From NCBI RefSeq assembly GCF_006345805.1, contig NC_042997.1:194246001-194310000 (forward strand): a stretch of 64,000 nt of DNA, written 5' to 3'. A program made the translations under genes and the position numbers. The notes under the pieces are model-generated. The model saw nothing but the letters and a program-made list of their open reading frames with translations. It did not search any database and was not told the DNA's origin. Below, piece after piece: positions 3,061-62,997 of this stretch (positions within the stretch are counted from its first letter, which is position 1; every line of letters starts with the position of its first letter). The DNA is from Octopus sinensis (Eukaryota).

Positions 3061-3504
3061 GGATCTTTTCGGTTTGAACGGCAGTTTTTTCTAGCGGTGT
3101 CATATGAAATTGTCACCCATAATTATGACCCTAGTATCGATCTATTGCATTTCAATCTATTTTAGGGTTAGGATTTGTTCGGGTTAGGTTTAGGGTTAGG
3201 GTTAGGGGTGGGGGAAGGGTTTCTTTTTTTCTTCAGAAATGTAAATAAACCGAATCTGTTTCTTATACGAGGGACATATTCATACGACACAGAATGTTGT
3301 TTACCTCAATGGACGTCATTGATTGGTTGAAATTGCAGAAATTGAAGAAAAAAACAACAAATATCTAACAAACTATAGAATTTTCTCAATAAACCCAAAA
3401 GAAAAAGATGTTTTATAAACACATTCTACCAGTATACGAAGTTTAAAAGAGTTTAGTTACGTGGAAATTATTTTAAAAAACTGCCGTTCAAACCGAAAAG
3501 ATCC
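3061..3504. mobile_element. MITE with ~30 bp TIRs and 8 bp TSD (Merlin-like), internal TTAGGG repeats
   Basis: TIR GGATCTTTTCGGTTTGAACGGCAGTTTTTT / AAAAAACTGCCGTTCAAACCGAAAAGATCC; TSD CGGACGGG at 3053-3060 and 3505-3512; second copy at 61472. Confidence 0.88.
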
Positions 3505-29430: not shown

Positions 29431-30852
29431 CAGGACGTGCAGGTGGTGCAAGCGCACTCCCTAGAATTTTTGCGGAGTGCAGAACCAAAATTTGCAGCCC
29501 TACTAATTTTTCTCAGGTTTAGAAAACGGTAAATAAAAAGCGATGTGTAAAAAGTAGCTTGAAGTTAGGTTCCTTCTCAAAGAACAAAACACAAAAATAC
29601 AAAAAAAAAAATAAATAAATAAGACCTTGTTTGTAAATATATTTGGACCTGGGTTTGCTTCCCCTAAGCAAATTTCATTCCCGAGCCAGTGCACAAGGCT
29701 GTAATCGGGCCAGAGCCATAATAAAAAAGGTATTTTCCCAAGTTCCTGCACTGTAGATTGAACCCAAAACCGCGTGATTGCAAAGTAAGCTTCTTAACTA
29801 CACAGCCATGTCTCGCCTATATATAAAAAAAAAGCCGGAATGCTTCACAATTAGCGTGTCACAAATTAGCAGAAGCCGTGCTAATCTTTATATCGTTCCA
29901 ATTTTCATATTTATCCTGTCGAAGCAACTTTCAACAAATGTCACCCACTTCTCTTGCACGATTTCTTATTATTATGACAAATGTCTTTTCTCGGACTTAA
30001 TAAGCCTTTTTAACGAGCCTTTAATTTGTTAAGTCGTCGACTGCTTGGCTGTGAGTTAAAATCACAAATATTTATGTTTCTTGACAAGATACTTTAATCC
30101 ATTCATTACTAGTCCGGTTCACAGAGATATGAGAAATGGGTACGACGATTTCCGTTGATGGTGTTAGGAGTAACTGGTTGACTCGTATTCATTTATTGCT
30201 ACGATAACTGAAACCAAACGCACCGCTCTATACACTGATGTGATTGATGGAAGAATAAGCTGTCTACTTTGAGCATAATACGGAAGCCGTGGGCTGTTTA
30301 TTGTCACCTGGTGCGCCTTGAAGAAATATTTATTCGTGGAAAATTAAAATGCGATAGATAAGCTTGTCAAAGATGACGGACAGTTGTGAAACAGCTTTGA
30401 GTACATCGGAAAAAAATAAATGTGTTAAAATACTCATTTGCTTTCTATGGGAGTCACGTGACTTTTGACTGTTGGCTTTCATTCTTAGCTATGTATTCTT
30501 TGCCTTTCGTCCTTTCGGAATCAGTGAAATAAGTACCAGTTGGGCACTGGGGTCGATGTGATTGCCTTCTCCTCTCCTCAAAATTGCTGACATGATGTTG
30601 AAAAAAATTAGGAAAAAAGAATTCTTAGATATGTACATACTTCGATAGATACATCAGCATGATTGCATATATACATAACATACATTTTTACATACATACA
30701 CACTTACATGCATACAAGCATGTATACATACATTCATACACACACATGCATACACGTACGCACACATACATGCATACATACATACATGCATACATACATA
30801 CATACATACATACATACATACATACACATACATACATACATACATACATACA

Positions 30853-30884
<32 letters not shown>

Positions 30885-31085
30885 CATACATACATACGTA
30901 CGTACGTACGTACGTACGAACGTATACAGACTTATATTCATAGACACTTACACAGCCATATATATATATATTATTGTGTCTGGGGAGAGTTATTCTCTTT
31001 TAGTGCCTTATAAATTTAAAACACTCACCGGTCCAATTTCCCCACGTATTCACATAAAGAACCTTGCAAACCAAATGCAAAAAAC

Positions 31086-33218: not shown

Positions 33219-34032
<814 letters not shown>

Positions 34033-38440: not shown

Positions 38441-38590
38441 GTTTAATGTTTGTACAATTTGCAGAAACTTTCTGACAGGAATGGCGACAAGAACGCTTGT
38501 GATGCAACTCTTGACCTGGTGCTAAACAACAATAACACCGCTAACAACGACTACAACCATTTAGTAAGACACTGAACCGTATGTGTCACT

Positions 38591-56954: not shown

Positions 56955-57188
56955 AACAATTGCAGCGTGGAAGGTGTTTGTAAGCCATTTAAGAAACACG
57001 CAAAAGCCGTTCGATTCACTTCAACATTTAAGTTTAATTTGTCAAATGCACGGATTTTTGTCAGTGAACAGGTCGCGGTCTTAAAGCGACGAAAATATTT
57101 TGACAAATTAAACTTAAATGTTGAAGTGAATCGAACGGCTTTTGTGTTTCTTAGATGGCTTACAAACACCTTCCACGCTGCAATTGTT
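56955..57188. repeat. long palindrome (~90 bp arms)
   Basis: AACAATTGCAGCGTGGAAGG...TTTGTCAAA pairs with TTTGACAAA...CCTTCCACGCTGCAATTGTT. Confidence 0.92.
57057..57107 (+). ncRNA. minimal hammerhead fold with G3-C8 compensatory core
   Basis: TTTGTCA-GTGAACA-G-GTCGC(GGTCTTAAA)GCGAC-GAAA-ATAT-TT-TGACAAA. Confidence 0.65.
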
Positions 57189-58890: not shown

Positions 58891-59029
58891 CATCCCAGAT
58901 ATAGTCTGTTCTGGTTTATTTCTCACATCTGCTTTTCAACTGAATTAATGGTGATTAGGTTTGTGTTTTCATGATTAGTGAATTTTTAATCTGCCGGGCG
59001 GCTATTCAGAATATCAGTGAATATTTTGT

Positions 59030-59282
59030 TGTGTCTGGGGAGGGTCATTTTTTTTTGTGCCTTATAATGTAACACACTCACCGGTAAAAAGACTATTGAA
59101 AAAGTTGAAAGACGCAACGAAAATTTTAGGAAAATAAAAATAGGAAAAAAGTGGAAATTTTATCGGTGAGTGTGTTACATTATAAGGCACAAAAAGAAAA
59201 TGACTCTACCCAGGCACAACAGAATATGCTTCAACACACAAACTCACATAAAGAATCTTGCAAACCAAATCCAAAAACGACA
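59030..59282 (+). mobile_element. foldback repeat family F copy carrying a U3-A8 hammerhead fold (59093-59129)
   Basis: Reverse complement of 59914-60103; homologs at 30975-31087, 54592-54620 and 62608-62932. Confidence 0.8.
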
Positions 59283-59579
59283 ATGAATATTTCATTCACT
59301 TTTTCCTATATCGGAAACGACGAATACTCTTCAGAGTAATTGACTGCCTGTGAGCATGCGCCATTAAAGAGACCCAAAAAGGTTGAAATACATCTGGCAA
59401 TTTCGCTGATCACTGCAGGGATGAATTTTTGTATTCCTGATATCTATCGAGTTTTTAAGACATGTCATATCAGGACAAATACGGCAGTGACTAGTCTAAC
59501 AACAGTGTGTGTGCATTAAGTATGATACATAGAAGGCTGTCTTTATCTATTTTTCATAATTATCTATCAGTATACTCAT

Positions 59580-59888
59580 TATTCTTTATTTGTTTCAGTC
59601 ATTTGACTGCGGCTATGCTGGAGCACCGACTTTGGTCGAACAAATCGACCCCAGGACATATTTTTAGTAAGCCTAGTACTTATTCTATCTTTCACATTTG
59701 CCGAACCGCTAAGTTACGGGGACGCAAACACACCAACATCGGTTGTCATGCGATGGAGTGGGGACAAACAAAGACACGCAAACATATACATACGACAGGT
59801 TTCTTTCAGTTTCCGTCTACTAAATTCACTTACAAGGCTTTGGTCTGCCCGAGGCTATAGGAAAACACTTGCTCAATGTGCCACGCAG
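59580..59888 (-). mobile_element. SINE family B, truncated
   Basis: B tail and body. Confidence 0.88.
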
Positions 59889-60064
59889 AATTAACTTAAA
59901 CTTTTGTAACCTTTCGTTTTGGGATTTGATTTGCAAGATTCTTTATATGAGTTCGTGTGTTGAAGAATATTCTGTAGTGTCTGGGGAGAGTCATTTTCTT
60001 TTTGTGCCTTATTATTTAACACACTCACCGGTAAAATTTCCACTTTTTTCTTATTTTTATTCTC

Positions 60065-60101
60065 CTAAAATTTTCGTTGCGTCTTGCAACCTTTTCAATA
60101 G
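60065..60101 (-). ncRNA. minimal hammerhead fold with U3-A8 core (family F)
   Basis: Minus strand CTA-TTGAAAA-G-GTTGC(AAGAC)GCAAC-GAAA-AT-TT-TAG. Confidence 0.5.
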
Positions 60102-60752
60102 TTTTGACTCTGTCCGTTATTTACACTGCGTTCCCTTTTGTTTGTTTGGGCGCATGCGTGTGGGTCAGTGTGTGTATGTGTGCCTATACATGCATGCATG
60201 TACGTATGTATGTGTGTGTGTTTTTGCATGTGTATGTATATATATGTGTGTATGCGTATGTATATATGTATGTTTGTGAGTGCATCTGTATGTAAGTATC
60301 CTGTATATTTACGTAGTTGCCTGTCCGTGTTTGTGTATTTTCTATGTATGTGTGTGTGAGCATGTGATTGTATATATATCCACCTCTGTCTCCTTGTGTG
60401 TGCATGTCTGTGTGTGTGTGTTATGCAACTATGTACCATGTTTGTATGTATGGATGTGCATCTATCATAATACGTGACAGAAAACTCAAAGAACGCAGAC
60501 GACATTGTATGATATTATCTAAAATTAGCAAACGCCTGAAGGGTCACAGACTGTATTGTTCTATCACTTTCATCTATATTTGAATCAATATCAAGCTCGT
60601 CTAAAATGTTGGAATTGTTAGAGAGCTCTTCGAAGTGACATGTGTAATCTCTCCCAAATGTTTACGTTTCGAGTTCAAATTCCGTGGTGACATATTGCAG
60701 CTTTACACAAATGAAGCAGACGGATTTTTTTAATGTATTGCTTTATTTTGCC

Positions 60753-61146
60753 ATCTCTTTACTCTTTTACTTGTTTCAGTCATTTGACTACGGCCATGCT
60801 GGAGCACCGCCTTTTAGTCGAGCAAATCGACCCCAGGACTTATTCTTTGTAAGCCTAGCACTTATTCTATCGGTCTCTTTTGCCGAACCGCTAAGGAACG
60901 GAGACGTAAACACACCAGCATCGGTTGTCAAGCGATGTTGGGAGACAAACACAAACACACAAACATATACACACACATACATATATACGACGGGCTTCTT
61001 TTCAGTTTCCGTCTACCAAATCCACTCACAAGGCTTTGTCGGCCCGAGGCTATGCAGGAGACACTTGTCCAAGGTGCCACGCAGTGGCACTGAACCCGGA
61101 ACCATGTGGTTGGTGAGCAAGCTACTTACCACACAGTCACTCGCCT
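60753..61146 (-). mobile_element. SINE family B, full length
   Basis: B head, body and tail. Confidence 0.92.
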
Positions 61147-61471
61147 TTTTTTTTCCAGTATTAAGTCACTTAGCATTTTTAAGGTACCCTCAAATGAGAC
61201 ATAACTAATGAAATATTAAATCGAAACAGGTTACAGGTGGTTAGAGCTAATCACTTGACCTCTATTGGACAGCGTGGACAGGTGAGCCTGTACCCAGCAC
61301 AGAGACAAGCTATCAACAACAGCAGCCTGTGGCTTCTATCCAGTGAATCGACGACTGAAAAGACTTTGTGTGTGTGTGTGTGTGTGTGTGCGTGCGTACG
61401 CATTTTCTTGGTTTTGTACACAGCTCTGAATAGTAAACGGTCACGAGTTCTATTTTTTAAAATCCATGATT

Positions 61472-61884
61472 GGATCTTTTCGGTTTGAACAGCAGTTTTT
61501 TCTAGCGGTATCATATGAAATTGTCATCCATAATTATGACCCTAGAATCGATCTATTGCATTTCAATCTGTTTTAGGGTTAGGATTAGGGGTGGGGGGAA
61601 AGGTATCTTTTTTTTCTTCAGAAATGTAAATAAACCTGTTTCTTAAACGAGGGACATATTCATACGGTACAGAATGTTTTCACCTCAATAGACGTCATTG
61701 ATTGGTTGAAATTGCAGAAATTAAAGAAAAAAAACAACAAATATCTTACAAACTATAGAATTTTCTCAATAAAACCAAGAGAAAAAGATGTTTTATAAAC
61801 ACATTCTACCAGTATACGAAGTTTAAAAGTGTTTAGTTACGTGGAAATTATTTTTAAAAACTGCCGTTCAAACCGAAAAGATCC
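61472..61884. mobile_element. second copy of the Merlin-like TTAGGG-containing MITE
   Basis: Same TIRs and body as 3061-3504, fewer TTAGGG units, no clean TSD. Confidence 0.88.
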
Positions 61885-62607
61885 GTTATTTTTATTAAAT
61901 CCTTCCAAATTCCAGGTTATTTTCAAAATTGACTGAAATACAGAGGCAATATCTCAAGTACAGTTTGTATTAGAAAAGGAATTTTTTATCGAAGGGGGAT
62001 AATCTGCTCAAATCGATTATCCCCCTTGCTTTATCAACACTGAACACGCGTTAGTTCTTCCAGAGATCGAATTTCTAACCTAACCATTTCCTTTACTTAC
62101 CCATCTGATTTCTTCAGAAACTGCATAAAAGCCACTACATAATAAAACATTGCACTGTACAGCAAAATATTATCAATAATGTGTTTCTTTTATATCTGAA
62201 AAATGTAAATTATTTTCTGAGTAGCAGACTCGTTAGTGATGGACACAATGCTTTATGGAATGGATTTAGTTACGGTCCTCTATGAACTAAGTTCAAATCT
62301 CGGCGAGGGCCATTTTGTCTTTCGTCTTTTCGGAGGTCATTTAAAATATTTAAACATTTGTACATTACTGCATATACTTTATACGCACTTTTGACAAGTT
62401 GTGGTGCACCTGAGCACTGTATACAATAATTTCATTATTATTATTATTATTATTATTATAATGCCGTCAAGTACTGGGACGAGTCAATATTTCGATACAG
62501 CATAGGCCTGAAGCCATGTGGTTGGAAAGAAATTTCTTAACCATGATTAATAACAAAAGTCTGTTCATAGCGTATCGCCTCTCATTTATAGTGAGCCATA
62601 AATGTAC

Positions 62608-62932
62608 TTCGTTTTTGGATTAGGTTTGCAAGATTCTTTATATGAGTTCGTGTGTTGAAACATATTCTGTTGTGTCTGGGGAGAGTCATTTTCTTTTTGT
62701 GTCTTATTATTTAACACACTCGCTGGTAAAATTCCCACTTTTTTTCTTATTTTATATTGCCCTAAAATGTTTGTTGCGTCTTGCAACCTTTTCAATAGCT
62801 TTAAGTTAAAACTATTGAAAAGGTTGCAAAACGCAACGAAAATTTTAGGAAAATGAAAATAAGAAATAAGTGGAAATTTTACCGGTGAGTGTGTTAAATA
62901 ATAGGGCACAAAAAGAAAATGACTCTCCCCAG
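62608..62932. mobile_element. family F palindrome (~125 bp arms) with a U3-A8 hammerhead fold at 62812-62848
   Basis: 62675-62800 pairs with 62810-62932; CTA-TTGAAAA-G-GTTGC(AAAAC)GCAAC-GAAA-AT-TT-TAG. Confidence 0.85.
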
Positions 62933-62997
62933 AACCAACATAAATGTATTGCTATACTTAAAATATTGGGAAGTACTTGTTTAAGCACTGCAAATAT

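What the first reader, a model, noticed from the sequence alone, without database searches (positions are those of the whole stretch)
59093..62848. Repeat family F carries a U3-A8 hammerhead variant at its terminus in several copies
Seen at 59093-59129 (+), 60065-60101 (-) and 62812-62848 (+), with a damaged copy at 62762-62798 (-): CTA-UUGAAAA-R-GUUGC(5 nt)GCAAC-GAAA-AU-UU-UAG. The architecture matches the 57057 motif (extra purine after A9, A/U palindromic stem III, U17) but uses a third 3-8 pair. Homology between copies stops just 5' of the motif. With C3-G8 and G3-C8 copies elsewhere in the window, three Watson-Crick combinations appear, suggesting a radiation of non-canonical ribozymes in non-autonomous Penelope- or retrozyme-like elements. 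Weaknesses: stem I is only 3 bp and the core is A-rich.
Basis: partly seen in the sequence, partly recalled or inferred. Interest (0 to 1): 0.78.

Follow-up and report, generated by a model that had tools for sequence, protein, structure and literature searches.

The report
Penelope retrotransposon minimal hammerhead ribozyme
The repeat is the leftover end of a protein-coding Penelope-type jumping gene, and the motif in it is a hammerhead-shaped RNA with a swapped core base pair that likely cuts itself slowly as a dimer, a kind already described in other animals.

Summary
The motif is at all four places given; the 59093 copy has a 4-bp stem II. A published-style descriptor gives 4 window hits and none in 100 shuffles. 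Family F is neither a retrozyme nor non-autonomous. Walking genomic copies upstream reaches a roughly 620-nt UTR and a reverse transcriptase plus C-terminal GIY-YIG frame with a Neptune-type zinc-finger linker. Tandem copies place the motif in the pseudo-LTR, 73 nt before the start codon. Across three subfamily groups none of 24 constrained motif positions changes, against 10-15 of about 70 flank positions. Only N7, loop II, N17 and stem I change, including a compensatory U-A/C-G swap. The 57057 G3-C8 family is a sister Penelope (endonuclease about 50% identical), so the 3-8 pair covaries between homologues. The U3-A8 core, extra nucleotide, palindromic stem III, U17 and 3-bp stem I are all in Cervera and de la Pena 2014. 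Cleavage is untested, stem I is weak in the youngest subfamily, and copy 5' ends pile up just upstream of the motif, not at the predicted cut. Verdict: real, likely functional, a new member of a known kind.

The parts
59093..59129 (+). Minimal type I hammerhead motif, copy A (U3 59096, A8 59101, U17 59126; predicted cut 59126/59127); stem II reduced to 4 bp
   Evidence: stem I pair probability about 0.05
59089..59280 (+). 5'-truncated PLE copy A: motif, 5' UTR, start codon at 59200 and the first codons of the ORF, ending near the +190 site
59020..59089 (-). Inverted partial partner of copy A (motif positions about +66 to +135)
60065..60101 (-). Intact motif, copy B (U3 60098, U17 60068; predicted cut 60068/60067)
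59912..60463 (-). PLE copy B: about 360 nt of the CA-rich UTR (60102-60463), motif, start codon 59994-59992, end at +190 (59912)
   Evidence: 77-84% identical over 519-594 nt to RT-selected copies L100, L106, L107, L108
62762..62798 (-). Damaged motif, copy C (G12 and A15.1 changed)
62608..62802 (-). PLE copy C, inverted partner of copy D, ending at +190
62812..62848 (+). Intact motif, copy D (U3 62815, U17 62845; predicted cut 62845/62846)
62808..62943 (+). PLE copy D, start codon 62919, ending near the +135 site
30966..31083 (.). Further family F fragments without the motif: 30966-31041 (-) and 31043-31083 (+), in TA repeats
57057..57107 (+). G3-C8 minimal hammerhead of the sister PLE family (G); 7-bp stem I, 6-nt palindrome

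Best explanation
Family F is the pseudo-LTR end of an RT plus GIY-YIG Penelope-like retrotransposon, and the motif in it is a minimal type I hammerhead with a U3-A8 core pair that likely self-cleaves slowly after U17 when two copies pair through their AAUU palindromes. Shown: the element layout (ORF, UTR, motif, start codon 73 nt after the predicted cut), tandem and inverted copies, two 3' ends at +135 and +190, and hammerhead-specific conservation across subfamilies. Inferred from published PLEs: the RNA is made from a tandem array; the two pseudo-LTR motifs form a double hammerhead, probably helped by the element's protein; reverse transcription starts internally at +135 or +190, mostly on uncut RNA; and most cDNAs stop just upstream of the motif, leaving the 140-200 nt single and inverted copies seen in the window.
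For: ELEMENT: GIY-YIG PF01541 E=1.5e-6, 28.8 bits, above the 22.6 cut-off. RT motifs SMDVISLYPS, QGAAIG and YSRYVDD are visible in the frames (motif names recalled), with weak RVT_1 (E=0.0087, below cut-off) and Atlas neighbours at 0.95 carrying RVT_1/HTH_animal. A C-x4-C-x2-C linker precedes the endonuclease. L208 and L212 show EN end, UTR, motif, ATG at +108/+107 and the ORF start. An opposite-strand copy lies within about 600 nt in 19 of 29 and 14 of 29 loci. 37 of 45 UTR- or RT-selected hits end at +128 to +136 or +185 to +193. SELECTION: majority sequences of three flank-defined groups differ at 0 of 24 constrained motif positions against 13 of 68, 15 of 68 and 10 of 72 flank positions (Fisher p 0.014, 0.007, 0.048). 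N7 is A in 68 of 68, C in 17 of 22 and G in 4 of 4. Stem I pair 2.2-1.2 is U-A in 63 of 68 young copies and C-G in 13 of 22 old copies. In Logan contigs of 4 runs the only listed variants inside the motif are at CpG sites (11 rows not shown). Sister family G: EN/linker 40-56% identical in most hits, N-terminal peptide 13 of 26 identical, 0 of 10,000 shuffles, G3-C8 in 27 of 28 parsed copies, variation mostly in loop II. PRECEDENT: PMC4209133 figure S3 lists a S. mansoni PLE motif with the same UUGAAAA core, 3-bp stem I and U17, and an oyster PLE motif with the same AAUU stem III.
Against: No cleavage data. Stem I is only 3 bp in the young subfamilies, with monomer pair probability 0.2-0.3 (0.05 in copy A) against 0.54-0.84 in the old subfamily. 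The modelled dimer (-8.6 kcal/mol) is far above the two-strand minimum (-20.5). 5 of 22 old copies have a C-A mismatch at the covarying pair. The within-family covariation is one event: the pair-count tool finds 2 pairs with double changes, 428 of 500 shuffles as high. 5' ends fall at -11 to +4 in 24 of 53 hits chosen on downstream sequence, at +34 in 2 and at the predicted cut (+35) in none (inverted partners are not independent). Motif copies were admitted at 19 or more of 24 skeleton matches (108 of 164 anchors), and the group with N7=G has only 4 copies. Pfam does not call the RT at its cut-off, and no intact full-length ORF was seen in the copies examined.
Confidence: 0.78

Rival explanations
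1. The motif is hammerhead-derived but, in the young subfamilies that include the window copies, is no longer an effective ribozyme; it is kept as a protein-binding, promoter or RT-pausing element.
For: Stem I shrank from 4 bp (old) to 3 bp (young) and a small AGUC/GACU hairpin competes with it. Copy ends ignore the predicted cut. In the anole PLE, hammerhead mutants do not affect insertion in vitro and no RNA-seq ends were found at the cut (PMC11167929).
Against: The free positions (N7, loop II, N17 kept as U or C) and fixed positions follow catalytic rules. Stem I stayed paired through a double change. The anole motif cleaves once protein is added.
Confidence: 0.14
2. A non-autonomous retrozyme- or SINE-like element that carries the motif at its end.
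For: Many copies are only 140-200 nt long and start just 5' of the motif; the window holds no F ORF remnant (tblastn).
Against: The short copies are nested truncations of a 4-kb coding element and their 3' part is the ORF start. No head-to-tail arrays of short monomers appeared in the loci examined; retrozymes are described as tandem and non-coding (bioRxiv 10.64898/2026.07.22.740005).
Confidence: 0.04
3. A chance A-rich hairpin in a foldback or MITE-like DNA transposon, with the inverted pairs as terminal inverted repeats.
For: The core is A-rich, stem I is short, and palindromic pairs occur at 59020-59214 and 62608-62943.
Against: Inverted arms have variable lengths and breakpoints and are a described PLE feature (PMC8557442). 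The family encodes RT and GIY-YIG. The motif sits at the same place in a sister family with compensated 3-8 and stem II pairs. 0 hits in 100 shuffles.
Confidence: 0.03

Closest known systems
Minimal hammerheads (min-HHR) of metazoan Penelope-like elements, including the S. mansoni Cercyon U3-A8 family (Cervera and de la Pena 2014, PMC4209133)
   Same: Type I topology, U3-A8 core (UUGAAAA in the S. mansoni(4) row), extra nucleotide after A9, G10.1-C11.1, palindromic stem III without a loop, U17, 3-bp stem I, position in the pseudo-LTR, most copies single or opposite-strand truncations.
   Different: Different host and PLE clade; AAUU rather than ACGU palindrome (AAUU is in the oyster row, with C3-G8). 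No cephalopod row and no G3-C8 row among the 56 motifs of figure S3 as read in text.
Neptune/Nematis EN+ Penelope-like elements (Craig et al. 2021, PMC8557442, passages)
   Same: RT followed by C-terminal GIY-YIG, CX2-5CxxC linker, partial tandems, inverted 5'-truncated copy, optional tail, A/T-rich and TA-repeat flanks (44 of 71 flanks at +190 have 12 or more A/T in 14 nt).
   Different: Tail about 55 nt against 30-40 bp described; clade not tested by phylogeny.
Anolis Poseidon PAc hammerhead (Frangieh et al. 2024, PMC11167929, parts 1-2 of 4 read)
   Same: Motif at the pseudo-LTR/ORF junction; two 3' ends inside the ORF start; no sign that cut RNA is the template.
   Different: PAc has C3-G8 and its ORF starts at stem II; here the ATG is 73 nt after the predicted cut. 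PAc cleavage was shown, this was not.
Non-LTR retrozymes (bioRxiv 10.64898/2026.07.22.740005, part 1 of 5 read)
   Same: Type I hammerhead in a high-copy animal repeat; proposed to derive from PLE pseudo-LTRs.
   Different: Family F is coding and not built of tandem short monomers.

Membership tests
EN+ Penelope-like element | C-terminal GIY-YIG endonuclease | tested here: met
   PF01541 E=1.5e-6, above cut-off, at residues 331-424 of the 428-aa frame of L080
EN+ Penelope-like element | Reverse transcriptase upstream of the endonuclease | tested here: met
   Catalytic motifs visible; RVT_1 weak, E=0.0087, below cut-off, in 1 of 2 pieces and absent; Atlas neighbours at 0.95 with RVT_1/HTH_animal; no PDB match
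EN+ Penelope-like element | Partial tandems that form pseudo-LTRs | tested here: met
   EN end, UTR, motif, ORF start in L208 and L212; motif before the ORF start also in L205-L207, L210, L211, L214, L215, L219, L220, L226 (24 loci examined)
EN+ Penelope-like element | Inverted 5'-truncated copies and optional 3' tail | tested here: met
   19 of 29 and 14 of 29 loci with an inverted partner; two ends 55 nt apart
Neptune/Nematis clades | CX2-5CxxC zinc-finger linker between RT and EN | tested here: met
   CTNDNCMVC before the endonuclease; definition from PMC8557442
Neptune/Nematis clades | Placement in the RT phylogeny | not tested
   No reference PLE proteins were fetched
Minimal type I hammerhead of PLEs | Core N3-UGA-N7-N8-A with Watson-Crick 3-8, GAAA, U16.1-H17 | tested here: met
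   U3-A8 in 64 of 68 young, 20 of 22 old and 2 of 4 third-group copies; N17 is U or C in the majority sequences
Minimal type I hammerhead of PLEs | Extra nucleotide after A9, G10.1-C11.1, palindromic 15/16 positions | tested here: met
   features from PMC4209133
Minimal type I hammerhead of PLEs | Stem I pairing supported by covariation | tested here: met
   U-A to C-G at 2.2-1.2 between subfamily groups, a single event, with 5 of 22 C-A mismatches; only 3 bp in the window copies
Minimal type I hammerhead of PLEs | Self-cleavage after N17, as a dimer or with protein help | not testable with these tools
   Needs an in vitro assay; no raw-read RNA run was listed
Non-LTR retrozyme | Non-coding tandem monomers, each with a hammerhead | tested here: not met
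   Copies are truncations of a coding element

The most novel reading that the evidence does not exclude
Two sister Penelope families in one genome have rewritten the catalytic 3-8 pair in opposite ways (U-A here, G-C at 57057) and use different dimer palindromes (AAUU against AAUAUU). They would form active, mutually orthogonal double hammerheads kept under selection although cut RNA is not what gets copied. That would be a natural double-mutant series, including a G3-C8 core for which my searches found no natural example, and a handle on the open question of what PLE hammerheads do, for instance trimming the 5' leader to switch the RNA between translation and reverse transcription.
Probability: 0.2. 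Interest if true: 0.6.

Novelty: new member of a known kind. Interest (0 to 1): 0.3.

Why it matters
It places a repeat with well over a thousand copies as a Neptune-type Penelope element and adds a U3-A8 hammerhead family from a new host. The useful addition is evolutionary: old and young subfamilies and a sister family give direct sequence evidence that PLE minimal hammerheads are under structure-specific selection. Their role in transposition is described as unclear (PMC8557442, PMC11167929), and this series is a ready set of natural variants for testing dimer and protein-assisted cleavage.

Tried and rejected
Rfam scan of the whole window: no hammerhead model among the 150 listed matches at the family F copies; only chance miRNA hairpins on the inverted pairs. 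Expression: no RNA holder listed and no raw reads; contigs cannot show ends, so the cleavage-site and circular-junction tests were not possible. The F1/F2 comparison (0 of 27 against 24 of 108) is inflated by indel shifts and by a query covering motif positions 1-10, so it is not relied on. A four-way flank clustering collapsed and the script stopped; groups were then set from that result and checked with a flank-only tree (young group against the rest 99/75, not starred). A longer stem I in full-length copies was looked for and not found in the young group (2.4-1.4 is A-G in 49 of 68). A pile-up of 5' ends at the predicted cut was not found. Family G showed no ORF in the first 30 loci but did in the upstream-selected set. 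Lunse et al. 2017, on short-stem-III hammerheads of PLEs, is not held; I saw only its citation and a summary in PMC6765202, and it may list G3-C8 or cephalopod examples. File 1 of the PMC4209133 supplement could not be searched. PMC1636495 had no passage on U17. Earlier scan notes: none.

Full report
OBSERVATION. The window lies in a 2.72-Gb animal genome; its repeats look to me like an octopus (recalled, from no call). Copies at 60065-60101 (-) and 62812-62848 (+) are intact. The 59093 copy has a 4-bp stem II, and the 62762-62798 copy has lost GAAA. Read as a type I hammerhead the motif is stem I CUA, core UUGAAAA (U3, N7=A, A8), one extra G, a 5-bp stem II closed by G10.1-C11.1, GAAA, an AAUU palindrome in place of stem III, U17, and stem I UAG. 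A strict descriptor gives 4 window hits from two families and none in 100 shuffles; it was written after seeing the motifs.

WHAT THE REPEAT IS. Genome searches returned 929 to 2,485 first-look candidates per query, which the tool calls lower bounds. Walking upstream from the motif led through a CA-rich stretch to a GIY-YIG frame, then RT motifs. L096 holds an inverted 3' copy, about 3.1 kb of broken ORF, about 620 nt of UTR, the motif and a TA-repeat flank. Pfam calls the endonuclease above cut-off. The RT rests on visible motifs, a weak RVT_1 hit and Atlas neighbours. A C-x4-C-x2-C linker points to Neptune or Nematis (PMC8557442, passages). A search with the 5'-most ORF piece gave 53 candidates. 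Of 24 loci examined, 12 carry the motif or a decayed form of it upstream of the ORF start, and L208 and L212 show the whole junction: endonuclease end, UTR, motif, ATG at +108/+107 and the continuing frame. The motif therefore lies in the pseudo-LTR, and the 'terminal' 135-190 nt of the short copies are the 5' UTR and first codons of the next unit. Window copy B keeps about 360 nt of the UTR, so homology does not stop at the motif.

COPY ENDS. 37 of 45 UTR- or RT-selected hits end near +135 or +190. The reference itself ends at +190, but loose ends in Logan contigs mark both places and only tandem copies run on. This matches the PLE tail, which in the anole element is the stretch between two internal RT start sites (PMC11167929). 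5' ends fall at -11 to +4 in 13 of 29 copies chosen on downstream sequence and in 11 of 24 other hits in the same loci; 2 of these 53 start at +34 and none at +35. The copied RNA was thus mostly uncut, as reported for the anole element in vitro. A transcription start or an RT stop at the small AGUC/GACU hairpin could explain the pile-up; neither was tested.

IS THE STRUCTURE SELECTED? Inserted copies decay neutrally, so I compared subfamilies. Queries lying downstream of the motif recovered older groups. Sets chosen with motif letters were dropped. Of 164 flank anchors, 108 had a recognisable motif, and 94 of these kept the homologous 5' side (68, 22 and 4). Majority sequences differ at 0 of 24 constrained positions against 13 of 68, 15 of 68 and 10 of 72 flank positions. 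Differences fall at N7 (A, C, G), loop II, N17 (U, C) and stem I pair 2.2-1.2 (U-A in 63 of 68, C-G in 13 of 22, U-G or U-A in the group of 4). Against this: 5 of 22 old copies have C-A there, the swap is one event, and the pair-count tool is only mildly above its shuffles (86% paired, 7 of 500; pairs with double change, 428 of 500). Folding gives a firm stem II but a weak stem I in young copies (0.2-0.3) and a firmer 4-bp one in old copies (0.54-0.84), and the dimer is not the lowest-energy two-strand form.

THE SISTER FAMILY. The 57057 family (487 exact hits of an upstream 24-mer, 0 control) has the same anatomy. tblastn finds F-like endonuclease, linker or thumb sequence in 11 of 30 loci. 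Its N-terminal peptide matches F at 13 of 26 residues. Its motif has G3-C8 in 27 of 28 parsed copies, C-G in place of U-A in the middle of stem II, a 6-nt palindrome and a 7-bp stem I. The 3-8 pair and stem II therefore covary between homologous pseudo-LTRs, which is the strongest evidence for a true hammerhead. The C3-G8 motif at 33778 (-) is a different repeat, seen once more among the fetched loci, and was not linked to these families.

MECHANISM. Most likely the tandem array is transcribed, two pseudo-LTR motifs pair through their palindromes to build stem III, and each cleaves after U17, 73 nt before the start codon. Published minimal motifs cleave weakly and only as dimers or trimers (PMC4209133), and the anole motif needs the element's protein, so slow, assisted cleavage is expected. 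U17 is recalled as the least favourable allowed residue. All of this step is inferred. I put hammerhead ancestry and selection at about 0.9 and real cleavage by the young subfamily at about 0.65.

COMPARISON AND NOVELTY. U3-A8 covariation in nature was reported in PMC3088659 (passages) and for about 1,300 S. mansoni PLE motifs in PMC4209133 (parts 1-2 of 4). That paper's supplement (file 2, parts 1-2 of 3) shows the same core, 3-bp stem I and U17. Searches turned up G3-C8 only as an engineered variant (PMC11167929; PMC3884650, passages), but the key 2017 survey could not be read. An octopus repeat annotation lists Penelope families and has no occurrence of 'ribozyme' (PMC13282606, passages). 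Also seen: PMC6765202, PMC6155905 and PMC2377424 as passages. Family F is a new member of a known kind; the subfamily series and the G3-C8 sister are the parts worth a follow-up.

Noticed in passing
window 57057-57107 (+); L310-L339: G3-C8 minimal hammerhead with a 7-bp stem I in a sister PLE family; no natural G3-C8 example turned up or among the 56 motifs. More unusual than the U3-A8 motif.
   Followed up: partly
L310-L339, about 10 nt upstream of stem I of family G: A branch-point, pyrimidine-tract and CAG sequence resembling a 3' splice site; the D. virilis Penelope intron also ends at stem I. No such signal is obvious in family F.
   Followed up: no
window 33714-33784 (-): C3-G8 type I hammerhead with a 6-bp stem I, long loop II and ACCGGU palindrome; weak Rfam HH9 match (E=0.0057); lies in a roughly 335-bp repeat with a 93% copy in L077.
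   Followed up: partly
family F, motif positions -11 to +4: Strong pile-up of 5' truncation and inversion points at a small AGUC/GACU hairpin overlapping stem I; may mark a transcription start or a cDNA snap-back point.
   Followed up: partly
window 38451-38523 (-): Weak match to the CPEB3 HDV-like ribozyme model (28.4 bits, below the 35 gathering score).
   Followed up: no
window 29829-29928 (-): U6 snRNA-like sequence just under the gathering score (39.7 against 44 bits), probably a pseudogene.
   Followed up: no
L102 (G000:C10:89695500-89705400): Two RT-EN-UTR-motif units about 5 kb apart in direct orientation.
   Followed up: no
L065, oriented 3166-3477: An exon-like frame with a P-loop that resembles a dynein heavy chain segment (recalled resemblance), next to a family F insertion.
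   Followed up: no
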